From contig OX597840.1 in assembly GCA_951406725.2 (NCBI GenBank), positions 18,042,001-18,106,000 of the forward strand: DNA of 64,000 bases, given 5' to 3'. Both the position numbers and the translations under genes were made by a program. The notes beneath the pieces are model-generated. The model did no database searches. It saw only the letters and a list, made by a program, of their open reading frames with translations, and was not told where the DNA came from. Of the stretch, positions 1 through 61,171 are shown piece by piece (position 1 is the first letter of the stretch; each line of letters begins with the position of its first letter). Source of the DNA: Octopus vulgaris (lineage: Eukaryota).

Positions 1-75
1 AACATAGGAGAAGGAAAGATCCAGAGAAGGGAAGACAGAGGAAAAAATCGCCAACGGTACACACGAGGTCACATT
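1..75 (-). mobile_element. Partial copy of the ~210-bp HHR-bearing short repeat (family of 11516, 42136, 42420)
   Basis: Reverse complement reads atgtgacc...gttggcgattttttcc...ggatctttcctt...cctatgtt, matching the other copies; truncated by the window edge just before the HHR core. Confidence 0.75.
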
Positions 76-2807: not shown

Positions 2808-3088
2808 TTATCGTTTCCTTGTTGTGCTTCTTCCTTTAAGTTTCCGTCTTGGGAATCTTTTAAACTTGTCTCCATTCTCATTTCTCATTGAATCTGTCCA
2901 AGAAACATCAACAGTGGATGAAGCCAGCCTCTTCTGGTGATAGTTAAATATTTTCACTCCAAGAATACAGCCCAATATCGGTGCTAACCAATAGACCAAT
3001 ACATGCTGCCAAGGGGTGGTGCCTTTACATCCAAACTTCATCACTGATGCTAGCGTTGGGTTCATATACATTCCAGTATGGTGAATAC
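2808..3088 (-). CDS. AQP11: Unorthodox aquaporin, last coding exon (GIHHTGMYMNPTLASVMKFGC...VYWLAPILG...RKR*)
   Basis: Acceptor ttgttgcag| at 3089-3090, phase compatible with the upstream donor (640+281=921 nt, 306 aa). Contains the second NPA-type box TGMYMNPTLA with Cys 9 residues downstream and the MIP hallmark VYWxxPxxG. Confidence 0.92.
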
Positions 3089-3377
3089 CTGCAACAACAA
3101 GAGAAGATAAGAAGTTAATAACAAGGTTGATAGTTCGTTAATGAGAACAATAATAAAAGGAGTCTGTGATCCATTATAAACGAATTAAAAGGCGAGTAGA
3201 GAGGGTTTGGGCAAGGTTTCTCCTGTTGCAAAAGCATTTGTGGTGTATAATACTTAAGATACTTCAGGTAAATTTGCCTCTTCAATTCCCCAGAATTACA
3301 TTAGAAAATAGACTCATATAGAACAGTATCCATCCTTTAATCAGAAAGATGAGAAATGCAAAAAGAATTTTAATATA

Positions 3378-3790: not shown

Positions 3791-4829
3791 ACAGAATATC
3801 TAGGTCAAATGAAAGAGACCCATGAAAAAATGGTGCATGATATGAAATAAATGAAACTCAACTAAATCTAAAATCTCAGCATAAAATATTCTCCATGACT
3901 TCTTTACTCTCTGCTGGAGTGATTCGCTTCCTGATATATTTACCCATCATGCAGTTAAAGAAAAGAGATTATTGAAGTTAATCCTTACTCATTCTGCCCT
4001 AATTTAGACATTGCTTTTTTTTCTGAAATTTGAAAATTCTCAAATTAGTATTGGAAAAAAAAATTTACTTGGAATCTAACAAAGAAAATAATATTCATTA
4101 TTAAACACCAAAAATTATCCAGATATTTTATCAGGAACCTAAATTACAATCGAGTGAGAATTGAGGAGAAATTTCTTGAAAAAACAGCGTCTCCATCAAT
4201 TCCTAGGGATATCTGAAGAAGGAATTTTATTCCGAAATATCATATCAGACTATCGATGATTAAATAACAACGGTTCTTATAGTCCAATGTTTGTATTATA
4301 GTGCTTTGTTGTGTCATTCAAAACATTTTATTCTTTACAAACAATACACAATGCTTCAAGCGAACTACAATACTCTCCATTATCTGTTACTTGGCCGTTT
4401 CAAACTCTCTCGGCTTCAAAAACAACAACTATGTTGACCAATTTTTATTCCTAAAGACGATGCAATTCTTGCAATCTAATGGTTTCAAATAGTGTGGAGA
4501 AGTTTGCTTGCCAACCACAAGGTTTTAGGTTCAGCCCAACTGCAATTCATGCTCAACTTGTGAGCATGAAAAAATGCTTCCAACAGTTGAGGTTTGGCAA
4601 CAGGAAAGGCATCCAGCTGCAGAACGAACTCCACATGATCCATGCAAGAATGGAAACGTGGGCATTAAAACAATGAAGATGATGGTAATACACACACGCA
4701 CGCGTGTATGAGTGATTTTCATAGTTTTCATGTATTGAAATTCACTCACGAGGTATAAGTTGGCCCAAGGGCTTCATTGAAAAACCCTTTGGTGTCGCAT
4801 AAAAATTCCTAATTTTGGTATCATGTAGA

Positions 4830-7480: not shown

Positions 7481-8069
7481 AATAATAATAATAATAATAA
7501 TGGTTTTAAATTTTGCCACAAGGGCAGAAATTTTGGGGGTGGAGATGAGTCGATTACATTGACCCGTGTTCAACTGGTATTTGATTTATCAACCCCAGAA
7601 AGATGAAATTTTAACTTAGAATATGCTGAGACCCCTTCGGTCATGACTGACCATGGGATTGCACCTAGAAAGTTACCCTCCCAGGCACAAGTCCAGGCAA
7701 GGTTGTGTTATGGAAGACCAGCAGTCAATCATGCCACCTGTGTTATCCAAGGGAAAGGCAAAGAGGCCAATACAGCTTGGCACCAGTGATGTCACAACTC
7801 CTTTCTACAGCTGAGTGAACTGGAGCAATGTGAAATAAAGTGTCTTGCTCAAGAACTCAACACATAGCCCGGTCTGGGATTCGAACTCACAATCGTAAGC
7901 TTGACACTCTAACCACTGAGCCATGCGCCTTCACACTTAGAATATAGTGATGTGCAAAATACCACTAAGCATTTCATCTGGTGCACTAATGATTCAGCTA
8001 GCCACCTTAATAATAATAATAATAATAATACAGAAAGAAAGTAGAAAGTAGAAAACAAACTGTACATAC

Positions 8070-8709
8070 CTAAAACGACCATTATTGGTCCAGTAAAAAG
8101 CTTTAGACACGAATCTACAGAATCATAAATGGTGATTCGACTTTGGCTTAACCAAGTCTCAAGCGCAATGGACCCTCCTTCAATGAGAAACCCCATGGCG
8201 ACCGCAACATTAAGGTCACTGGCACAAGTCCTTTGAGACAGTTGCTGTGTGTGCTCTGGCATGATTTCTAAAAGCCAGATCATGTGTACGACAAGTGCAA
8301 TGGCTGGAATGGCAAAGATCTGTGTGAAGACCCTGAGAAGTAAATCACTGAAAGAAATTACCTCTTTCATGTATTTCAGTACATTTGCTGGAACCGAAGG
8401 TGCCGAGTCTTTGAAAATATTCCTGAAGAGAAAAGCCATGAATCCTGACATGAGGACATAGGTGGTGTTGCCATAATAGAACCGTAGTATTCCATGTTGA
8501 AACGAAATTGTACATGACGTAATGGTGCAGAAGAAATCTGAGAGAATTGGTCGCAGCCAGATGGGAGCGAATATGGAATTGAGTTTAAATATACCAACAT
8601 GGACTAGCAAGACGAGGGCGTAGTAGATCAGGCACTGTAGGAATGGTATGATGAAAGGAAAGATTCTTGGATTGTTCCAAGTATCTATCCAAGAACTTGG
8701 TACTTCCAT
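8070..8709 (-). CDS. AQP11: Unorthodox (super) aquaporin, AQP11/AQP12-like, first coding exon (MEVPSSWIDTW...GPIMVVL-G)
   Basis: Hydrophobic multi-TM ORF with AQP11/12-like segments (DFFCT...; HTQQLSQRTCASDLNVAVAMGFLIEG). ATG at 8709, downstream of an acceptor ttgtttcag| at 8737-8738 that implies an upstream exon. Phase-1 donor G|gtatgt at 8070/8069. AQP11 vs AQP12 orthology cannot be resolved by eye. Confidence 0.88.
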
Positions 8710-8973
8710 TGTAGCATAGAGAAGTTTTGGAACAATCTGAAACAAGAATAAAAAATAGGGTTTGAAAATGGAACAAAAGAAACAACAAATTATAAAAGGA
8801 AATACAAAAAAAATAGGATTTTTGAAACAATGATTGTGTGGTAGGGATGATGCTTCCAAACCATATGGCTTCAGGTTCAGTCCCACCTAACTGATTGATT
8901 GAGTCACTGAACAATTCTTTTACTCTTTTACTTGTTTTGACTGTGGCCATGCTGGATCACCGCCTTTAGTCGA

Positions 8974-11515: not shown

Positions 11516-11727
11516 ATGTGACCGCTTGTGTATCGTTGGCGATTTTTTTTTCTCGTTCTTCCCTTCCTTGGATCTTTCCTTTTCCTATGTTTCTGATGAA
11601 GAGCTCTGCTCAAAACCTTAAATCCTCTTTCTTTCTTTCCTTTGCTGAGCGTCCAATAACACTATACTTGTTCCATGTCCTCGCGTTGTTGTGTTTTCTC
11701 TTTGTGTTTCCATGTTTGGATTAACTT
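11516..11727 (+). mobile_element. Short repeat with degenerate minimal hammerhead ribozyme (CTGATGA at 11593)
   Basis: gttt-CTGATGA-a-GAGC-tct-GCTC-AAAAC (GAAA mutated); flanked by (TA)n. Confidence 0.65.
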
Positions 11728-12122
11728 TATATATATATTATATATATATATGTATGTATGTATGTGTGGTTATGTGTATATATATATGTGAATATATATG
11801 TTAATATATATGTATGTTCCTCATGTATATGCAGTTTCATACATAACTGAAATAACTTTAAGATATATTGATTTTATAGATTGCAAAATTACTCCTCTTA
11901 TAATAACTTTCTCATACCTCTGTTTATATTTTATCTAATATGATTAATATAATGCATCTAATAATAACAATTGATTATTGTGTATGCTTTGAAATGTAAT
12001 ATGTATGTACAGTTAAGTGTAGGTATATGTATTTATGTATATTTATATATGTATGCATATGTATAAGTATGAAAACGTGCGTGTATTTATTTATATTTAT
12101 GACTGAACCTTATGTACTTTCT

Positions 12123-21312: not shown

Positions 21313-22478
21313 GTTTGGTGAGTATCAAATAGGAAATTTCGGTTGTGTACACAGAGAAAACCAACACTAAAAGTATTTAGTGCCTAAAGTGCTGGTCCAA
21401 ATCACGTGTTCCTTTGAATAGTATGTTGTTGGTATAGTGTAGGGTGTCCGACAAGTTGTAAATTTCTTTGGTGTATTACAATCAGATGAATAATAACAGA
21501 CGATGGATAATTGTCGGCTCGTTACAACTGTTTCTTACATTTAATTTTTAATTGAAGGATGAGAACATTACTTCATTCTGAAAAACCATAATGTTCAGAT
21601 GGAGAGTAATTTAACAAACAAAAGAATATCTCAAGAGTACAGCAGGGGCGTGGCTGAAGTCTGCCAAGGCCAACTGTGAAATGGGAGCAGTGACCAACAA
21701 AGTTGGCCATTGAGGTCAAGGATACAGTTTGCAAGAGTGTATAGTATGGTATATGATGTCAGCAGCTTTGGTGAGAGAGGAATCAGCTAGACTGGTCCTT
21801 AGGCTGGAGTGGGGTGTAGGTGATATTTTATTATAGTAGGCTTAGTGCAATGGGAAGTAAGGAGAGGTCCTACTATAAATTAAGGATAACGGAAGAAAGA
21901 GTAAATAAAGCAAAAGTAAGGGTGAAGCAAAATAAAAGCATACAAGCCAATTAGGGTTTAGGATTCACTACCTAAGGCTAAAGAACAAAAGGAAGGGGGC
22001 AAAGATACACAGAATTTTGGGGTATTCTGTGGATATTGGTTCAAAGTTGGGGGAGGGTACGAAGGTAAGTGAATCAATAAGATCTAACTTTTATGGAATT
22101 GTAGTGTTAGTAAAAGTAAAGTACAGTTTATTATTAAGGTGTTTAAAGAAGAAGGGGTTACACCTAGTACGGAGTAAGAGGAAATACCAGATGAGTAATG
22201 TTCTCATTCTTCTATTAAAAATGATATGTATGAAACAGCTGTAATGACCAGATAATTATCTACCCTATATTATTATTTGAGTATATATATATATATATAA
22301 ATATATAGATCGTTAGCCACTACACACATTTTTTTCTCTCCTTGTTTTTTCCGTGTCCCTTTCTGTAGAAGAGCATAGGCTCGAAAAGTAAAAAAACTTT
22401 TTCTATTCCTGAGCGTTATACTAATACATCTGTTTGTTTTGTACACCACCTGTCTTCATCTTTTGTTTTTTTCGTAAG

Positions 22479-24371: not shown

Positions 24372-24425
24372 AAATCTCACTAAGATTTGAACTCGGATCA
24401 CTGGATTCAAAGTTCTGAGTGCTAA
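24372..24425 (-). pseudogene. Truncated tRNA-Gln(TTG) pseudogene
   Basis: Minus strand TTAGCACTCAGAACTTTGAATCCAGTGATCCGAGTTCAAATCTTAGTGAGATTT closely matches the 3' two-thirds of metazoan tRNA-Gln-TTG. Anticodon at 24408-24410; 5' part missing and stems mutated. Confidence 0.7.
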
Positions 24426-24790
24426 ATCATGGAATGATATGCCACAAACTCTGTGATCTCGGCATAGCTGGAAAACTTGGAGAGTGGTTACATGACTTTC
24501 TGAAAGATAGAAGTCAGGCAGTAGTGGCCAATGGTACCACCTCAATGAAAGCACAAATAGTGAGCGGTGTTCCACAGGGCACTGTCTTGGGACCACTGCT
24601 TTTCATAGTGACCCTCTTAGATATGACCTCAAATGGCCAGATAGCCACCCTTACTAGCTATGCAGACGATACGAAAATCTTGCAGAAAATACAGAACCCC
24701 AGCGATGTTGCACATCTGTAGGAGGAGTTGGACTCAATTTACAGATGGGCTGAGGTTAATAATATACAGTTTAATGCTGAAAAATTCCAA
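24426..24790 (+). mobile_element. CR1/L2-group LINE reverse transcriptase fragment
   Basis: WLHDFLKDRSQAV...SGVPQGTVLGPLLF...YADDTKI...L*EELDSIYRWAEVNNIQFNAEKFQ, with an in-frame stop at 24719-24721; truncated on both sides. Confidence 0.88.
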
Positions 24791-36450: not shown

Positions 36451-38449
36451 ATATAAGTAGCTATTTAGAAAATCTCAATAAGAGATGAAAGTAGTAACTA
36501 TACTAAGAAATAATATTTATCACCCCATCAGCTGTTCGATGTTACTGATATTTCATCCCCAGGTAGGTCCTTCGCTTGCTGGTCACTGGTGCAACCTGCA
36601 TCTTGCACAGATTGCAAGCAGGGGAGTGAACCCCTGCCATCCTGTTATGTCTTGCTCCACACTGATATGTCATGCATTATAACGACATACTTTGTCATCT
36701 GCGTGATTGGCCTGAACAGCATACCTCCCCGACTGATACCTATTTCTTTACTGCCCACAGGGGGCTGCACAGAGAGAGGACAAACAAGGACAGACAAATG
36801 GATTAAGTCGATTACATTGACCCCAGTGCGCAACTGGTACTTATTTAATCGACCCCCCGAAAGGATGAAAGGCAAAGTCAACCTCGGTGGAATTTGAACT
36901 CAGAACATAACAGCAGACGAAATACTGCTAGGCATTTCGCCCAGCATGCTAACGGTTCTGCCAGCTCGCCGACTGATACCATTTTTTGTGTCAGTCCACT
37001 ATTTATTTGTAGTGGAACAGCCCACTTCTCTCACTGAGGGGTGTTCTCCACAACACGTCCCCTTTGAGATTTTTTTTATTCACACACCATTATATTCCCT
37101 TTTTTTTTCTTTCTAATATTTATTATTTCTTCACACAGCATTATTGTTTTTTTTTTTCATATTCCATTTCTTTTTCTTCCACACACAGAATTTTTTCTCC
37201 AAACTGCCCCAGCTAGTACCGGCTCTACATTCTTACCAGCAGTGCTACAAACACATAGCAACCTGACTGAAATCCTTCAAAAGGCTTGTGTTATTATTAT
37301 TTTTTCTTTTATTTTTGTTTTTGTTCTTCACAAAGCATTATTATACATATATTTTTTTTTCATATTCCTTTTTCTTTCTGTGTCCCACTATTGTGAAGTG
37401 TGTGAAATTAAAATCCTTGACCTCCTAACATCTCTAGTCACCCTATATCTACCAATTTTTAATCTATATTAGTAATGTTCTTTAATATTAACATAAATTC
37501 ATTTAAAGGAATTGTATACAAGTCAAATTCAATATTTATAAAATCTGAATATTCGTATCTTTAATATCATTGATGTCCTAATGCTTTAATTGTGAGAAGT
37601 GCGTTAATAAATTCATCTAGAAGATATAATTTTAGGGATGGTCGTGCAAGGAAAAGTAAGCCAATTCCCTAACCTATTTCTTTACTAGCCGCAAGATGCT
37701 ACACACAGAGGAGACAAACAAGGACAGACAGACCAATTAAGTCGATTATATTTACCTCAGTTCATAACTGGTACTTAATTTATCGACCCCGAAAGGATGA
37801 AAGGCAAAGTCGACCTCGGCGGAATTTGAACTCTGAACATAATGGGAGACGAAATACCATTAAGCATTTCGCCCGGTGTGCTAACGTTTCTGCCAGCTCG
37901 CCGCCTAACCACTAAACCACACGCCGTCACCTTACACACAAACACACACACACACACAAACACATACACATACACAAACTGGGGATGATTTATAGAACAA
38001 AAATTCTTCAAAGCAGTGCCCCAGCCTGGCCCCAGTCTAACAACTGAAACAACTAAAAGGAAAGGAAAGTGTCACATAACTGGTACATATGCTGGTGGCA
38101 CATAAAAAGCACTTTCAAGTGTTGGGCCTCACTGGGGCACTGACAAATGACCGAGACCTTTGCCAACATTCTGCGCTTGAGAGGAAGACCCATCAAGTCA
38201 AGATAAAATCATAGATGTGGCAGATACTGGTGTCACACAACTGGCAAAAAGCACTCATTACGCTCTTGGAGTGGTGGGCATTAGGAAGGGCATCCAGCCA
38301 TAGAAACCATGCCAAATCAGTCTGGTGCAACCCCTCAGCCTGCCAGTCCTGGTCAAACTGTCCAACCCATGCCAGCATGGACAACAGACGTTAATTGTTG
38401 ATGATAATGATGATGATGACTTATATATCTATGTCTATATATCTTTATT

Positions 38450-38602
38450 TTCTCTCTTTATTTTCTCTCCTTGTTTCTTTCTGTGGAAGAGCAGAGGCTC
38501 GAAACGTTAAAGACTTTTTCACTTCCCGAGCGTTATACTAATACATCTGTTTGTTGTCTTCACCACCTGTCTTCGTCTTCTGTTTTTTTGTGAATTCTCC
38601 CT
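38450..38602 (+). mobile_element. Short repeat with hammerhead-like motif (variant core CTGTGGA)
   Basis: tcttt-CTGTGGA-a-GAGC-agag-GCTC-GAAACGTT-aaaga at 38476-38513. Relatives at ~22310-22478 and ~51930-52080. Confidence 0.6.
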
Positions 38603-38689
38603 ATATCTATAAATATCTGTATCTATATATATAGAGAGATATATATATATGATACAGATAAGGAAATAATTTATTTCTAAAAGCAGAAT

Positions 38690-40932: not shown

Positions 40933-41972
40933 TTCCCTCTATCTCTTTCTCTCTCTCTCTCTTTCTCTATCTCTTTCTTTCTCTCTCTCTTTTTCTTTCT
41001 CTCTCTTCCTCTCTCTTTCTTTCTTTTTTTGCCTTGCTTGCTTCAGTTATTGGACCGTGACCATGCTGGAGTACTGCCTTGAAGGATATTAGTCAAACAT
41101 ATCGAATTATGTTAAATTGGGTACATATTCTATCAGTCTCTTTTTCTGAACAGCTAAGTTAAGATGTAAACAAACTAACATAGGTTGTCCAGTAGGCAAG
41201 GGTGAGGAGACAAAGGGGCACATGCACATAGCCATCTATGTAGGACAGGGATGAATATGGGTTCCATCTATATACAGATATATATATCTAATATAATATA
41301 ATATATATATATATACACGCACACACACATACACATATGCATACACATATAGATACAGACACACACAAGCACATGCACAAACATGCACACACATAGGCAC
41401 GCACACGAATGCACACATACCTAATGCTCACAACCCCACGCATACACATATATACACCCACCTATGCACACATACACACGCACACATTCATGCACACACA
41501 ACTACACACACATATGACACGCACATACATATACACACACACATGCACATGCAAATGAACCCACACATACCTCCCATACACACAGCACACACTCATACAT
41601 ACATGCACACAATTATACATACATGTATACACGTACGCACATACAAGCACACATGCACACATACACAAAGTAAAGCACAGTTATTCCCTACACACATAAC
41701 CCCTACGCATACACACATACACACACGAACACACACACACACACACACACACTGCAAATAAAACACACACAAACTACATATACATACATGCACACACACA
41801 TACTTCAAACTACCAGTACCTTCCACTGACCATTCTCCTATGCACATGTGTAGGTAGACACACAAAAGACAGCCACTCCTACTATAAATTCTTCCTATGA
41901 CCTTAAACAATACTAAGCCCAACCACACACATAGATTAACAGCCACACACACACACAGACACACGTGTTATC

Positions 41973-42018
<46 letters not shown>

Positions 42019-42135
42019 CACACACACATGCACACACACACCTGCGCGCATGCACATACTCACACATACACACACATACCTCCTTCTCTTGCACTCTCCT
42101 GTCTTTGAAAGAACTTTTTCTTCCGGTCATTCAAT

Positions 42136-42342
42136 ATGTGACCGCTTGTGTATCGTTGGCGATTTTTTTCCCTCCATCTTCCCTTCCTTGGATCTTTCCT
42201 TTTCCTATGTTTCTGACGAAGAGCTCTGCTCGAAACATTAAACCCTCCTTCTTTCCTTCTTTCCTGAGCGTCCAATAACACTATACTTGTTCCACGTCCT
42301 CGCGTCGTTGTGTTTTCTCTTTGTATTTTCATGTTTGGATTA

Positions 42343-42421
<79 letters not shown>

Positions 42422-42629
42422 GTGACCGCATGCGTACCGTTGGCGATTTTTTTCCCTCCGTCTTCCCTTCTTTGGATCTTTCCTTTTCCTATGTTTCTGA
42501 TGAAGAGCTCCACTCAAAATGTTAAACCCTCCTTCTTCCCTTCCTTCCTGAGCGTCCAATAATACTATACTTATTCCACGTCCTCGTGTTGCGTTTTCTC
42601 TTTGTATTTTCATGTTTTGGATTAACTTT
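42136..42629 (+). mobile_element. Two head-to-tail copies of the ~210-bp HHR-bearing repeat separated by (TA)n
   Basis: Copies at 42136-42347 and 42420-42629. The first has intact CTGACGA (42213-42219) and GAAA (42232-42235). Confidence 0.75.
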
Positions 42630-42664
<35 letters not shown>

Positions 42665-51704: not shown

Positions 51705-52286
51705 ATACATATAGATATATATATATGTGTGTGTGTGTGTGTGTAAATATATATATATATATATGTGTGTATGTATGCATGTATATGTGTATGTATGCAT
51801 GTATATATATATGTATGTATGTATTCGTGTATATATATATATGCATGTATATATATATATATATATATACATATATACACACACACACACACACATATAT
51901 ATATACATACACACATGCCGTAACTATCTGCCTGTTCTCTCTCCATATTTTTACTCTCTTTGTCTATTTTTTTCTGTAGAACAACATATGTTTAAAACAA
52001 AAGACTTTTCTTTCCATTTCTCCAGAGCGTAAACCTAATACACTCGTTTTTTATCTTGTCTTCATGTTATTCATAATTCTTGCATCACATGATGGTTGGA
52101 AATGAGTGTCTGTGTCATACAAGTTGTTAATGTGCTTTCAATCATATTCTAGTCATGGCAAAATATTACCTTATTTGGAAACTAGTGAGAGTTGGTGACA
52201 GGAAGGGCATCCTACCATAGACTTCAATTTGGCCATGTCAACAACAACAACAACTAATGCAACAGCTTCCACTACTACCACTGCTA

Positions 52287-56880: not shown

Positions 56881-58644
56881 CTAATTGTAAGCAAACTCAA
56901 ATAAAGGAAACATGAAGAATCGAACCATTATTGATAACATCTCGACTAACTTCATTCGGAAAATGTCTTGGATTTCCTTAATTTCTATCATCTGAGGCAA
57001 ATCTCGGTCTTCAGTAGATATATAGCGGAGATGAAGAATAGGGTCACCCAGGGCCAAATTTTGTGCAATCAGGCCAATGAATCTTACACGATCTCCAACT
57101 CGTAAAGTCAACAGCTGGTCTTGGAAACGGTAATCTGCCAGCAACGAACACTGAATGTAAGATCCTTGCATGGTAACAAATACCTTAAACGTATAGTAAT
57201 CATATTCTTTGAGGTGACAGGTCCTGCCAAGAGACATCATTTGCTGGCAATGTTTGTAGTCGACCGTATTCTCAAAGTTTTCTTCCTTACAGTCATAAGC
57301 TTCTCCGTAGGCACAGCGTAAGTGATTTGCTATAAACAGTGGTATACTCTCAAGAAATTTCTCTGCCGAATTCTCCACTTTTGTAATGGTTATGTCTTCA
57401 ATTGTACCGTTCCATGCGACTTTTATTCCTTGCAGGTGCGAACAGCGTATTGCAGTTGTCGCTTTGGTCTCACCTGGAGGAATACTGCTGCAACGTTGCA
57501 TGTATTCAGGCCATGTCAACTGACTCTGAGTCTCTTCGTGCATCGCAGGAATCTGAATGAAGAACAAAGGAACAATAGCAATGACACAGAAAATGGCGAT
57601 TGCAATTCGTTTTGCGACTCGGTATTTCGAGCTGATTTGGTCTCCGAGCAAAAGGTGGCTTTGCGTGAGAGCAAGTGGAATCCCGAGCAGAATAGCAGTC
57701 GTCAGAATTTTACCGAACACTGCTGATTGTACAATTCTGAAAATGAAGTAGAGAACGGACAGGCAAGCAGTCAAGAACGAAAGTGGCACTAACAGGGGCA
57801 GCATGAGGTAACCGACAGTGGCGCGAGCCAAGGTCCACCAGGTGGTGTAAGTAAAGAGTATTATGGCAAAGTTCCACCAAAAATAGCAGACCAGGTGAGG
57901 AACGAGGACACGGTAGAATCCTTGCCAGGATTTCTTCCTAGCCATGAACATGAAGAGGAAGAGGAGGGTGATGAAGGCACCGGACGGGAGGCTGAAGTTG
58001 AAGTTGAATCCAAGCCCAATATTGATCACAAACAACGGGGACGAGATGAAACGGAGGAGTTGGACTATAATAGGGATGTCTGGGAAATTTTTCATAAGTG
58101 TCGGAAGAGAGGCAAGTAAGTTGGTAGCCAAACATGCTAAGGTCAGGTGGTCGTAGCTGTCACTTAATGCAATAAAACAACTAATGGCTAACAGCAGGGA
58201 GATAACACAAAACTCCGAACACGGTATGTACATTTTGTCGGCCAGAGAAAAATTGAAAACCGTAGTAAAAACCGACAGGAAAAAGACTATATACGGCGCC
58301 ATAGAATTCCAGCAGAACTGAGATTCGACATTCTCAATGTCGACGCCAATCTCGAAATTCTTCAACACGGACGTCAGCCGAGCTGTTTCCGAAAGCTTCT
58401 GCCGACTGTAGAACATCTGCAAGGTAGAAATTATCATGGCGGCAATGGAAAGGTAGAAGAAGAAGAGGGGGAAAATAAATAAAATAAGGTCTGGAGTGAT
58501 GAAACTGTAGACGAAGAGCAGCAACATAAAATAGATTTGTCGGGTCGGGATGAGAGAGAGCAGCCAACTGGTTCCTCGAGTTGATGCCACTTCCAACACG
58601 TGCTGGACACAAACTTTGATCGTAGTCATTGGATGTTTCATAAC
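56881..58644 (-). CDS. WFS1: Wolframin (WFS1) homologue, large terminal exon: TM domain, Cys-rich domain, OB-fold-like C-terminus
   Basis: 586-aa ORF with wolframin-like motifs (WLLSLIPTRQIY, YIPCSE, GFYRVLVPHLVCYFWW, LTWPEYMQRC, CSHLQGIKVAWNG, LRCAYGE, CHLKEYD, C-terminal FFMFPLF). Phase-0 acceptor ctacttttag|GTT at 58645/58644; stop at 56881-56883. Confidence 0.93.
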   Translation of the reverse strand, partial: VMKHPMTTIKVCVQHVLEVASTRGTSWLLSLIPTRQIYFMLLLFVYSFITPDLILFIFPLFFFYLSIAAMIISTLQMFYSRQKLSETARLTSVLKNFEIGVDIENVESQFCWNSMAPYIVFFLSVFTTVFNFSLADKMYIPCSEFCVISLLLAISCFIALSDSYDHLTLACLATNLLASLPTLMKNFPDIPIIVQLLRFISSPLFVINIGLGFNFNFSLPSGAFITLLFLFMFMARKKSWQGFYRVLVPHLVCYFWWNFAIILFTYTTWWTLARATVGYLMLPLLVPLSFLTACLSVLYFIFRIVQSAVFGKILTTAILLGIPLALTQSHLLLGDQISSKYRVAKRIAIAIFCVIAIVPLFFIQIPAMHEETQSQLTWPEYMQRCSSIPPGETKATTAIRCSHLQGIKVAWNGTIEDITITKVENSAEKFLESIPLFIANHLRCAYGEAYDCKEENFENTVDYKHCQQMMSLGRTCHLKEYDYYTFKVFVTMQGSYIQCSLLADYRFQDQLLTLRVGDRVRFIGLIAQNLALGDPILHLRYISTEDRDLPQMIEIKEIQDIFRMKLVEMLSIMVRFFMFPLFEFAYN

Positions 58645-59354
58645 CTAAAAGTAGAGTAATAATAATAATAATAATAATTATAATAATAATAATAATAATA
58701 ATAATGATAATAGTAATGATAATAGTAATGACAACACCAACAACATAATATTAATAATTACAATTTCATTTATTGGCCACAAGGGCCCAAGACATGGAGG
58801 ACAATATTTTTTATTTCTTTATTGCCCACAGGGGGTTAAATAGAGAGGGGACAAACAAGGACAGACAAAGGGATTAAGTCAATTACATTGACACCAGTGC
58901 ATAACTGGTACTTATTTAATCGACCCTGAAAGGATGAAAGGCAAAGTCGACCTCGTCAGAATTTGAACTCAGAACGTAAAGGTAGATGAAATGCTGCTAA
59001 GCATTTTGCCCAGTGTGCTAACAATTCTGTCAGTTTGCCACCTTAAGGACAATATTGAAGGATGGGTTACAGCACAAAAACATTTACAAAAACATGTGGG
59101 GTTAACATTAATCAAGGGGAGATCCTACCACATTAAAGGATATAACAGAGGATATCTAACAGAAAGTAGAGAAATAAATAATAAATAAATAGAATCTCCT
59201 GATAATGGGGCGGTCCACTTAGAGTAATCCAGGGTAAAACCCATGAAAAATCCCAGATTACTCTGCCATCTCCAAGGCATAGGAAAGTGCCCTCTTCCAG
59301 TTTCTTTCCCCCTGCTTAGAAAAGCATATTCAGAATCGACCTATTCAGTTTCAC

Positions 59355-59830
59355 CAGTGGAGGGGAGTTGTGGAAGAGGGAGAGCCATGAAGATATGGGA
59401 TGAAGTTTTGAAGGCTGATCGCAAAACGCTGGACCTTATAAAGGAGGTGACAGAGGATGAAGACATGAGGCACATCGTTGTACTCAAGGACATCCACCCA
59501 CCCACCACAACAGTACTTAGATCTGAAAACCAAGGTGCCACATAAAAAGCATTGGTGTGGATGCTGATGCCATGAAACATGCACTGGTTCTGGTGCCATG
59601 TAAAAAACTCTGGTGATGGTACCATGTAAAAAGCACCTTGTACAAACTGCAGAGTGGTTGACATTAGGAAGGGCATCCAGCCATAGAAACCAAGCCAAAA
59701 CACACTATGGAACTTGGTGTGGGGCCCCTGGCCTTGTTAGTTCCTGTCAAGCTGTCCAACCCATGCCAGTATGAAAAACATGTGTTAAATGATGTTGATG
59801 ATGATGATGATGACGATGATGATGATGATA
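59355..59830 (+). mobile_element. RTE-clade LINE 3' end (ORF C-terminus, 3' UTR, (gat)n tail) in a WFS1 intron
   Basis: VEGSCGRGRAMKIWDEVLKADRKTLDLIKEVTEDEDMRHIVV resembles the RTE terminal motif EGxxxRGRPxKTW...D...DRxxWR. Confidence 0.72.
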
Positions 59831-59860
59831 ACAATGATGATGGACATTTGTCTTTTTTAC

Positions 59861-60000
59861 CTTTGACCAAACGCTTGATCTCTTGTACACCTCAGACTGT
59901 TCAGCTGCTTCTTCTTCAGTCAAATTAATCTTTCCTTGGATCTTCTTGGAGATGGTCTTTACGAAAGCATCTTCAGAGATGGCATCGCCGATCTTCTTAC
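59861..60000 (-). CDS. WFS1: Wolframin internal exon (G-KKIGDAISEDAFVK...RSSVWSK)
   Basis: Acceptor ttctgtgacag| at 60001-60002 and donor AAG|gtaaaa at 59861/59860. 140 nt, phase 1 to phase 0, joins both neighbouring exons in frame. Confidence 0.85.
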
Positions 60001-60817
60001 CTGTCACAGAAGAAAAAGAAGGATTAAGATTAACCCTTAATGTGCAGGAACTGATTTAACTCATTCCTGGTATTAGGGTACTTTATGGAATTCTCAACAT
60101 TTCAAATGACAATGTACACGCATTATATTTTTACTGGCCAATAGAGAGAGAGATCACAAGACCTGATGTGCATATGGTTTGCATGTGACATCACCAGCGA
60201 AAATTTAATCAACGCAGTGATGGTTAGGTCTAACAGCCAAGCAGGCTCTTGTAGGGTTTGAACTCAGAATATAAAGAACTGAAACAAACACTACAAGGTA
60301 CTATAAGAATTGTGCCATTCCACTGCTGTAGAATTGTTTCTATTTATTGACCCTGGAATGACAAAAACTTGAGGTGGGCTCTGTAGGATTTAAGCCTGGT
60401 TCATAAGGCACTGTTTATTTATTGATCTATGGTGAAAATGAATTTCATGTCAATAATTAGCATACAAAACTACATCAATACACCAAATTTTAAGTCAATT
60501 TGAACAGAATTTAAGAAATTTAAGAAAGTGGCAGCCAAACAGAAGAGATCCTAATATTTTGGTATTCTTTCGAAGCAATGCCATGAATTATAGATTCTTG
60601 CTGTTCTTTTCCTCTGCATCTTAAAAAACCCTACAAAAAGTCAGAGGTGCTGCCCTCTATCTGTTGAATAAGACATAAACATAATAATAACAGCAACAAT
60701 AACAACAACAAAAGCAACTACAACAGCAACAACACCACCAACAACAGTAATAACAACAGAAACAACAACAGCAACCACAACCACCGCCACATACATATAC
60801 ATCCCAGACCCCATTAC

Positions 60818-61018
60818 CTGCTGCAGCCAATAATTTCCGTGCCTGTTCATCGCCTGGGATTTCCTTTATGGCTTTCATATACTCATCCTTGCTCAGCACT
60901 TCTTTGTGGGTCTTGTTGAGAGAGCCAAACATCTGCCTGGCAGCAAGTCTGATTTTCTTCTCCATTGCAGACGTATTTATACACCATTTAATGAGTTCTT
61001 CATTCTGTTCTGTGATTC
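60818..61018 (-). CDS. WFS1: Wolframin internal exon (GITEQNEELIKWC...EKKIRLAARQMFGSLN...LLAAA-G), EF-hand-like region
   Basis: Acceptor atctttacag| at 61019-61020 and donor CAG|gtaatg at 60818/60817, 201 nt. The GIT..NE...E..R.AA..M...LN pattern recalls vertebrate WFS1. Further upstream exons not identified. Confidence 0.87.
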
Positions 61019-61171
61019 CTGTAAAGATAAACAAAAGAACAATCATATTTAAGTGTAATGTTAGTTTTAAGTGACTCCAGGGCTTTCATCTCCCTGCCTC
61101 TGACTATTCACAACTTTTCTCCACTGTTAAGAGAGTAAGAAAACAGAGAAGAAGAGAAAATCAATCATATA

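What the first reader, a model, noticed from the sequence alone, without database searches (positions are those of the whole stretch)
42136..42629. Dispersed, tandem-forming ~210-bp repeat carrying a minimal hammerhead ribozyme (retrozyme/Penelope-like non-autonomous element)
Seen: at 42209-42243, GUUU-CUGACGA-A-GAGC-UCU-GCUC-GAAA-CAUU-AAAC has both conserved HHR boxes, a 4-bp stem II, a 4-bp stem I and a vestigial stem III (a sister family reads ACGU, a palindrome). Copies occur at 1-75 (-), 11516-11727, and twice head-to-tail at 42136 and 42420; the complete copies are each followed by (TA)n. Established: Penelope-like elements and retrozymes carry minimal type-I HHRs with palindromic stem III that cleave as dimers from tandem copies. 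Inference: this is a non-coding ribozyme-bearing retroelement family that could release monomer or circular RNAs from tandem arrays.
Basis: partly seen in the sequence, partly recalled or inferred. Interest (0 to 1): 0.8.

Follow-up and report, generated by a model that had tools for sequence, protein, structure and literature searches.

The report
Solo Penelope-type ends carrying minimal hammerheads
This is a very abundant short repeat that sits in TA microsatellites and carries a stripped-down hammerhead RNA motif; it is likely the end piece of a known class of animal jumping gene (Penelope-like elements), and the side-by-side pair here likely comes from two separate insertions that would not release a circular RNA.

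Summary
The repeat and the motif are real. The window holds four copies of a ~212-bp unit, and 42209-42243 fits the published minimal type I hammerhead of Penelope-like elements (PLEs). Public runs hold thousands of contigs of it; 88-96% of their depth reads the palindrome ACGU in this family itself. The unit is the 3' end of a longer element: the copy at 42136 runs on upstream through the CA-rich tract. The retrozyme reading is weak. Only 1 of 3 complete copies keeps the core; the 42420 copy has G12A. A 75-bp TA tract separates the pair, and the 42136 copy shares more diagnostic letters with the copy 30 kb away than with its neighbour (6 sites against 3). The predicted cut lies mid-unit, copies do not begin there, and no amplified head-to-tail joint was seen. 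Best reading: solo pseudo-LTR-like ends pasted into (TA)n by a PLE enzyme, the hammerhead riding along uncut. No parent reading frame was found and cleavage is untested. A new member of a known kind.

The parts
42136..42347 (+). Family A unit, copy A1 (~212 bp), pyrimidine-rich, non-coding
   Evidence: 18,405 / 9,064 / 5,901 / 4,621 contigs of four runs laid on 42075-42352
42031..42135 (+). Upstream continuation of the same element in copy A1, including CA-rich sequence; about 12 bases are missing at 42123 compared with other copies. It may reach the TA tract at 41269-41315 (inferred, not tested)
   Evidence: 520 / 268 / 308 / 219 contigs laid on 42058-42135; loose ends before 42061 resemble 42031-42060; loose ends behind 42123 rejoin the unit start
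42209..42243 (+). Minimal type I hammerhead of A1: stem I 42209-12/42240-43, CUGACGA 42213-19, extra A 42220, stem II 42221-24/42228-31, GAA 42232-34, helix III half-site 42235-38 (ACAU here, ACGU in the family majority), U17 at 42239 with the predicted cut 3' of it
   Evidence: majority letters; architecture as in PMC4209133
42264..42271 (+). Short motif CTGAGCGT kept in families A and B, about 20 bases behind the hammerhead; role unknown
   Evidence: 8 of 8, 7 of 8 and 7 of 8 letters shared with B1, B2, B3
42347..42421 (.). (TA)n tract, 37.5 copies, between the two units: tail of A1 and likely target of A2
42420..42630 (+). Family A copy A2, short form; hammerhead 42493-42527 with G12A at 42516 and a stem II mismatch at 42512; its cut-site strand (GUU, 42521-23) is intact
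42632..42663 (.). (TA)n tail of A2
11516..11731 (+). Family A copy A3, short form, TA-rich on both sides; hammerhead with G12A and non-palindromic ACCU
1..74 (-). Family A copy A4, 5' part only (window edge falls just before the core); shares a few more bases upstream of the unit start
22310..22475 (+). Sister family B, copy B1, (TA)n on both sides; core CUGUAGA (U at position 6)
38440..38610 (+). Sister family B, copy B2; core CUGUGGA, 5-bp stem I with C-G where family A has G-C, ACGU palindrome at 38504-07
51935..52057 (+). Sister family B, copy B3, decayed

Best explanation
The ~212-bp unit is a high-copy repeat in TA microsatellites that forms the 3' end of a longer element and carries a minimal type I hammerhead motif, and it is likely the pseudo-LTR end of an endonuclease-bearing Penelope-like element (Neptune-like as a best guess), likely pasted into (TA)n by that element's reverse transcriptase from a linear RNA in which the hammerhead stayed uncut. 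Shown: copies, TA flanks, motif anatomy, family-majority ACGU, upstream continuation, dead core in A2 and A3. Inferred: (1) an RNA of the + strand is the template and is copied from its 3' end at a nick in a TA tract; (2) most copies are short because the RNA starts, or copying stops, near 42127-42136; (3) a lone minimal hammerhead cannot close helix III, so the short RNA is copied intact, which is why the cut site lies mid-unit; the motif would act only where two copies meet, as in the two ends of a full parent transcript; (4) the pair at 42136/42420 arose when a second copy landed in the TA tail or flank of the first. A read-through RNA of this pair could be cut once at most (A1 core on the A2 site) and would yield no monomer or circle.
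For: Motif has all four unprompted marks of PLE minimal hammerheads listed in PMC4209133 (extra base between 9 and 10.1, G10.1-C11.1, palindromic 15.2-16.2, family-wise covariation). It is the best-kept stretch between families A and B: 26 of 35 and 27 of 35 letters, 0 of 500 shuffles reaching the score, whereas the four flanking 35-mers are reached by 72-419 of 500. Stem I changes on both sides between families. TA flanks at the 3' end in 3 of 3 complete A copies and TA-rich loose ends before 42129-42134 in three of four runs; (TA)n bias is described for Neptune and Naiad PLEs, and Naiads lack canonical hammerheads (PMC8557442). The element continues upstream, at 7-18 times lower depth in three runs (42095-104 against 42145-54: X15 10,222/179,353; X17 16,686/122,291; X1 12,801/191,734), and depth rises from the 5' end to about 42290 in all four runs. 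No place where many contigs begin or end, including the cut site (table 6). A1 equals A3 and differs from A2 at 6 of 17 sites compared. Most PLE minimal hammerheads were already reported as single motifs from truncated PLEs, and Xenopus 'retrozymes' map to PLE ends.
Against: No parent reading frame was found: no PLE RT or GIY-YIG match among 149 of 348 frames plus 9 frames, and two protein searches gave nothing usable; the upstream ~800 bases are CA-rich and non-coding. The clade name is therefore a guess. Run X16 (76% read) shows no depth step at the unit start (117,848 against 143,158). Contig depth is no copy number, and length variants in T runs could produce part of the gradient. A1 equals A2 and differs from A3 at 3 of the 17 sites, one of them a rare letter (A at 42325, about 4% of depth), and overall identities are close (A1-A3 197 of 212, A1-A2 191 of 208), so a single two-unit insertion or later conversion is not excluded. 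Within family A the core is not measurably better kept than the rest (2 of 11 core sites among 23 polymorphic sites, p = 0.34). Arrays joined through TA spacers cannot be seen in these contigs.
Confidence: 0.7

Rival explanations
1. It is a true non-LTR retrozyme: tandem copies are transcribed, dimeric hammerheads cut out monomers, these circularise and are copied back as multimers.
For: Tandem Repeats Finder calls 42134-42663 an array of period 284, 1.9 copies, 91% matches. Four backward joints exist in the runs: 42321 to 42140, 42322 to 42147, 42324 to 42147 and 42350 to 42240, the last landing on the first base after the predicted cut (table 5c). The helix III half-sites of A1 (ACAU) and A2 (AUGU) are exact complements. 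Earlier unchecked notes report real 360- and 490-bp hammerhead arrays elsewhere in this genome.
Against: Each joint is one contig at depth 9.8-25.7, the range of single-copy contigs in table 8. A2 has G12A, so the pair fails the two-complete-hammerheads criterion of the 2026 preprint. Unit ends are fixed far from the cut site. The hammerhead is minimal, whereas the tested animal retrozymes carry canonical ones (PMC7229834). The unit folds no better than its shuffles (z = 0.53). The active hybrid fold of the pair lies 13 kcal/mol above the ensemble in a model without tertiary contacts.
Confidence: 0.1
2. It is a SINE-like element with a captured hammerhead, moved into TA tracts by a LINE (for example an R4/Dong or RTE element) and not by a PLE.
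For: No PLE frame was found. A curated Octopus vulgaris annotation lists 893 recently active 'unclassified SINE' families and active Dong-R4 and RTE LINEs (PMC13282606). Microsatellite targeting by Dong elements is recalled, not checked.
Against: No polymerase III A box on either strand, one B-box-like word that is part of the hammerhead itself, and five T runs on the + strand, one of 7 bases near the unit start; no tRNA gene in the window. This hammerhead architecture is described from PLE ends. The LINE RT fragment at 24419-24718 has no link to any copy.
Confidence: 0.12
3. The motif no longer has, or never had, a ribozyme role in this family: it is neutral baggage or a protein-recognition hairpin, and the likeness to a hammerhead is ancestry only.
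For: 2 of 3 complete A copies have G12A; 3 of 3 B copies have U at position 6, a position where a natural A6C change greatly lowers cleavage in Mg2+ (PMC7151607). Minimal PLE hammerheads cleave weakly even as dimers; 8 of 9 Xenopus dimers did not cleave. No within-family excess of core conservation.
Against: The family A majority keeps every core base and the palindrome, and the motif is the best-kept segment between A and B with a two-sided stem I change, which points to selection on the fold in the source elements.
Confidence: 0.08

Closest known systems
Minimal type I hammerheads in the pseudo-LTRs of metazoan Penelope-like elements (Cervera and de la Pena 2014, PMC4209133; main text parts 1-2 of 4 and supplementary PDF parts 1-2 of 3 read)
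   Same: CUGANGA-H, G10.1-C11.1, GAAA-palindrome-UH, 4-5-bp helix I without a defined loop 1; many families per genome; mostly single dispersed motifs; U17 is common in their alignment.
   Different: Helix II is only 4 bp with a 3-base loop, at the short end of their range. The two molluscs in their 56-motif alignment are Lottia and Crassostrea; no cephalopod. The link to a PLE reading frame is not shown here.
Animal non-LTR retrozymes (Cervera and de la Pena 2020, PMC7229834, passages and discussion read; Li, Clavereau and Pollet 2026, 10.64898/2026.07.22.740005, parts 1-3 of 5 read)
   Same: Short non-coding unit of 150-450 bp with a type I hammerhead; likely dependence on a PLE; derivation from a PLE end is the 2026 preprint's model, which also counts many monomers.
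   Different: No array with two complete hammerheads here; minimal and not canonical motif; TA tract between neighbours; fixed ends away from the cut site; no circular RNA evidence.
Neptune-clade EN+ PLEs and non-autonomous PLE derivatives (Craig et al. 2021, PMC8557442; passages, sections 3 and 15 read)
   Same: (TA)n insertion bias, variable 5' extent, hammerhead near the 3' end, target-site duplication not discernible in microsatellite.
   Different: RT, GIY-YIG and the linker zinc finger that define the clade were not found; Hydra, Nematis or Penelope/Poseidon parents are not excluded.

Membership tests
PLE-type minimal type I hammerhead | Core CUGANGA, GAAA, U16.1 and H17 | tested here: met
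   Met in A1 and in the read majority; not met in A2 and A3 (G12A)
PLE-type minimal type I hammerhead | Extra base between 9 and 10.1; G10.1-C11.1 pair; helix I of 4-5 bp | tested here: met
   criteria
PLE-type minimal type I hammerhead | Palindromic positions 15.1-16.1 | tested here: met
   Family majority ACGU, 88-96% of depth in 4 of 4 runs; 0 of 3 window A copies keep it (ACAU, AUGU, ACCU)
PLE-type minimal type I hammerhead | Covariation across families | tested here: inconclusive
   6 window motifs: 44 of 48 cells paired, 3 pairs changed on both sides, covariation score reached by 1 of 500 shuffles; few sequences, the structure was derived from them, and stem II of the 4213 motif is misregistered
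PLE-type minimal type I hammerhead | Self-cleavage as a dimer | not testable with these tools
   bench test; folding models only
EN+ Penelope-like element (Neptune-like) | ORF with PLE RT and GIY-YIG endonuclease bounded by this unit | tested here: inconclusive
EN+ Penelope-like element (Neptune-like) | Insertion bias for (TA)n | tested here: met
   3 of 3 complete A copies and 2 of 3 B copies end in TA-rich tracts; TA loose ends before the 5' start
EN+ Penelope-like element (Neptune-like) | Fixed 3' end with variable 5' extent | tested here: met
   A1 long, A4 slightly extended, A2 and A3 short; upstream depth 7-18 times lower in 3 of 4 runs
Non-LTR retrozyme | Tandem repeat with at least two consecutive units holding complete hammerheads | tested here: not met
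   A2 has G12A and a stem II mismatch; criterion. Tested at this locus only; backward joints in runs are single-copy
Non-LTR retrozyme | Canonical hammerhead with loop 1-loop 2 contacts; highly self-paired monomer | tested here: not met
   4-bp stem I flanked by pyrimidine tracts on both sides; linear monomer z = 0.53
Non-LTR retrozyme | Expression as monomeric linear and circular RNA | not testable with these tools
   only contigs were available; they show neither ends nor strand
Rfam hammerhead families | Score at the family's gathering threshold | tested here: not met
   0 matches in the window; no hammerhead among 17 matches up to E = 10
tRNA-derived SINE | Polymerase III A and B boxes, no early T run | tested here: not met
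   box patterns recalled

The most novel reading that the evidence does not exclude
The short form is a self-standing 'half-ribozyme' RNA: it starts at an initiator-like word at the fixed 5' end, is harmless alone, and thousands of dispersed copies pair in trans through the ACGU half-helix to cut one another or the parent element's RNA, a copy-number-dependent brake on a Penelope-like element; sister family B spread with U in place of the conserved A6, a natural core variant.
Probability: 0.08. Interest if true: 0.65.

Novelty: new member of a known kind. Interest (0 to 1): 0.2.

Why it matters
The kind has been known since 2014, and the function of PLE hammerheads is still open (PMC8557442). 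This family adds a very abundant case in which the copied RNA evidently kept its hammerhead uncut, which fits the view that the motif works only in pairs or is a passenger. With a whole assembly, its thousands of copies would allow a clean test of selection on the core and of where the element's RNA starts. It does not by itself open a new mechanism. I found no paper describing this family: searches 'hammerhead + Penelope + octopus' (5 papers, 4 listed) and 'hammerhead ribozyme + cephalopod' (4 papers, 2 listed). It may sit unnamed in the O. vulgaris repeat library of PMC13282606, whose consensus files and supplement I did not see.

Tried and rejected
Rfam: nothing relevant. An exact motif scan of viral, metagenome and prokaryote contigs gave 0 matches in each. 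No RNA holder listed on record; run X1 is only guessed to be RNA, so expression is left open. An idea that the minus strand upstream of the unit starts the parent ORF was dropped: the frame runs into CA-rich sequence that belongs to the element itself, and the protein search returned one low-complexity hit at E = 1.1. A second frame across the unit found no longer protein (46 candidates, none at E 0.01). The frame upstream of the separate 4213 motif looked like an endonuclease end by eye, but its single hit was a repetitive protein matched at 29% and Pfam was empty. The RT fragment at 24419-24718 reads like a LINE RT, not a PLE one (judged from recalled motifs). Polymerase III boxes and tRNA: none convincing. 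The upstream tract 41310-41975 has no second copy in the window. A knotted or rewired fold using the conserved CTGAGCGT word was checked by eye only: it could extend helix III or compete for stem II, but in family A it leaves a mismatch next to the cut and no covariation was available. The z-score of -8.2 for the two-copy region comes from the TA hairpin and is not evidence. One search used a pattern with one N too many and was replaced. The A-against-B identities for the hammerhead were misregistered and were replaced. Look-ups of earlier findings by sequence, near place and relatives returned nothing.

Full report
Setting. The window is microsatellite-rich animal DNA with wolframin exons at 56881-61085 on the minus strand. 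It is probably an octopus; this rests on my recall of such repeats and on unchecked earlier notes, not on a test.

Observation. The stated letters are at 42209-42243. BLAST and nhmmer give four family A copies: A1 42136-42350, A3 11516-11731 (92.6%), A2 42420-42630 (90.2%) and A4 74-1 on the minus strand, cut by the window edge before the core. A sister family B has three copies, at 22329-22472, 38440-38610 and 51935-52057. A sequence-only minimal-hammerhead pattern finds 2 sites (4213, 42213) against a mean of 0.01 in 100 shuffles. A structure-aware scan allowing one core mismatch finds 5 sites against 1 in 12 shuffled windows together. Rfam has no match, which is unsurprising for a motif without loop 1 and helix III (inference).

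Anatomy per copy. A1: stem I 4 bp, CUGACGA, extra A, stem II 4 bp with a 3-base loop, GAA, ACAU, U17 at 42239. A2: G12A, stem II 3 of 4, AUGU. A3: G12A, ACCU. So 1 of 3 complete A copies keeps the core and 0 of 3 keep the palindrome. B2 has a 5-bp stem I with C-G where A has G-C, and ACGU; 3 of 3 B copies have U at position 6. The motif is the best-kept stretch between A1 and B1 or B2 (26 of 35 and 27 of 35 letters; 0 of 500 shuffles), while four flanking 35-mers are at chance (72-419 of 500). On six window motifs 44 of 48 cells pair and 3 of 8 pairs change on both sides; this is a small set and the structure was taken from it.

Family level. 18,405, 9,064, 5,901 and 4,621 contigs of runs X16, X15, X17 and X1 lie on 42075-42352, so the family has at least thousands of distinct copies; depth is not a copy number. 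The majority has G at 42237 (88, 92, 94, 96% of depth) and C at 42227 (84-90%): the palindrome ACGU belongs to this family, and A1's ACAU and A2's AUGU are what CpG decay on opposite strands would give (inference). G12A holds 2-5% of depth and U4C 4-10%. Of 23 polymorphic sites (6 sites where A1 has a private letter were set aside), 2 fall on 11 core positions (p = 0.34), and 0 of 11 stronger ones fall on 27 core and stem positions (p = 0.37).

The unit is the end of a longer element. Contigs continue upstream of 42136, and on 42058-42135 520, 268, 308 and 219 contigs were laid; their loose ends before 42061 resemble the window's own CA-rich letters at 42031-42060. Copy A1 is thus a long form with a small deletion at 42123; where it starts is unknown, perhaps at the TA tract 41269-41315. 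Upstream depth is 18, 7 and 15 times lower than at the unit start in X15, X17 and X1, but not in X16, of which 76% was read. Loose ends before 42129-42134 are TA-rich in X16, X15 and X17 (agreement 0.46-0.58). Short copies therefore start in a narrow zone, where the letters resemble an initiator consensus (recalled); PMC3846280 notes initiator-like words in a rotifer Penelope pseudo-LTR (passages). Depth rises from the 5' end to about 42290 in all four runs, as copying from the 3' end of a + strand RNA would give, though T-run variants may contribute. No PLE frame was found (149 of 348 frames, 9).

Is the pair a retrozyme dimer? For: period 284, 1.9 copies; four backward joints in table 5c and one in table 5, one of them landing on 42240, the first base after the predicted cut; complementary helix III half-sites; one rare letter shared by A1 and A2 (42325). 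Against: a 75-base TA tract separates the units; A1 is long and A2 short; A1 sides with A3 at 6 of 17 sites and with A2 at 3; all joints are single contigs at single-copy depth; table 6 lists no place where many contigs begin or end; A2's core is dead. A read-through RNA could at most use A1's core on A2's GUU at 42523, a fold 13 kcal/mol above the ensemble in ViennaRNA, against 3.6-4.3 kcal/mol for A1's own two stems (no tertiary contacts modelled). One cut gives no monomer. The decisive anatomical point is that the cut site lies about 104 bases into a 212-base unit whose ends are fixed elsewhere: the copied RNA was mostly uncut and linear (inference). Contigs cannot reveal arrays joined by long TA tracts, so rare true arrays elsewhere are not excluded.

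Mechanism (0.7). A PLE-type enzyme likely nicks (TA)n and copies a + strand RNA from its 3' end. Short RNAs starting near 42127-42136, or early stops there, give the solo units; rarer events give long forms such as A1. The minimal hammerhead needs a partner to close helix III, as shown for a Schistosoma motif that was inactive alone and weak as dimer or trimer (PMC4209133), so it would act only in the parent's two-ended RNA, if at all. Each new copy leaves TA on its flank, a target for the next, which likely produced the pair.

Comparison. It works like the pseudo-LTR ends of EN+ PLEs and passes the sequence tests for their minimal hammerheads; membership of a named PLE clade is unproven without the ORF. 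It fails the retrozyme criterion of two consecutive complete hammerheads at this locus (10.64898/2026.07.22.740005). Cephalopods have PLEs (PMC13282606, parts 1-2 of 3; PMC8967140, passages), and 235 Rfam hammerhead hits were counted in the giant squid (PMC6962438, passages). Natural core variants are known (PMC3088659 and PMC7151607, passages); one search for A6U listed no natural hammerhead case among 4 papers shown. PMC12602865 (passages) added nothing. Supplements not seen: those of the 2026 preprint, PMC8557442 and PMC13282606, and the last part of that of PMC4209133; a repeat library there may already hold this family.

Earlier AI notes on this and other genomes reach the same kind of reading for other families; they are leads, not support. 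Verdict: real, ordinary in kind, interest 0.2.

Noticed in passing
window 4208-4246 (+): A separate, perfect minimal type I hammerhead of unrelated sequence: 5-bp stems I and II, palindrome AUAU, C17. No second copy in the window; the upstream frame found no real homolog.
   Followed up: partly
window 22363, 38481, 51974 (+): All three family B copies have U at hammerhead position 6 (CUGUAGA, CUGUGGA), so a high-copy family may have spread with an altered core; not checked in reads.
   Followed up: partly
window 42235-42238 and 42519-42522: The two neighbours decayed at the same CpG on opposite strands, so their helix III half-sites still pair perfectly and A1's core could in principle cut A2's site. 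Probably chance.
   Followed up: yes
window 42350 to 42240, run X16: One contig joins the unit's 3' end, through nine other letters, to the first base after the predicted cut site (table 5c): a possible footprint of a cut RNA, single case.
   Followed up: no
window 42264-42271: The word CTGAGCGT is kept in families A and B and could pair with the 3' strand of stem II or with the helix III half-site; no covariation data.
   Followed up: partly
window 42214: 4-10% of read depth has C at core position 4 (CCGA), perhaps a subfamily with a variant core.
   Followed up: no
window 35952 (+): Weak hammerhead-like hit with a perfect core but wobble-rich stems, no extra base and no palindrome; may be chance.
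   Followed up: no
window 56881-61085 (-): Wolframin gene exons (Pfam WC-rich, WCOB, WEF-hand); the finding lies about 14 kb past its stop codon.
   Followed up: no
window 24419-24718 (+): Decayed reverse transcriptase fragment (RVT_1, E 5.5e-07), LINE-like by recalled motifs.
   Followed up: partly
window 7909-8886 (-) and 2811-3137 (-): A 325-aa hydrophobic open frame without a Pfam match and a weak aquaporin-family (MIP) match below the curated cut-off.
   Followed up: no
window 41020-41300: Another dispersed repeat with more than a dozen partial matches across the window at 68-89%; not characterised.
   Followed up: no
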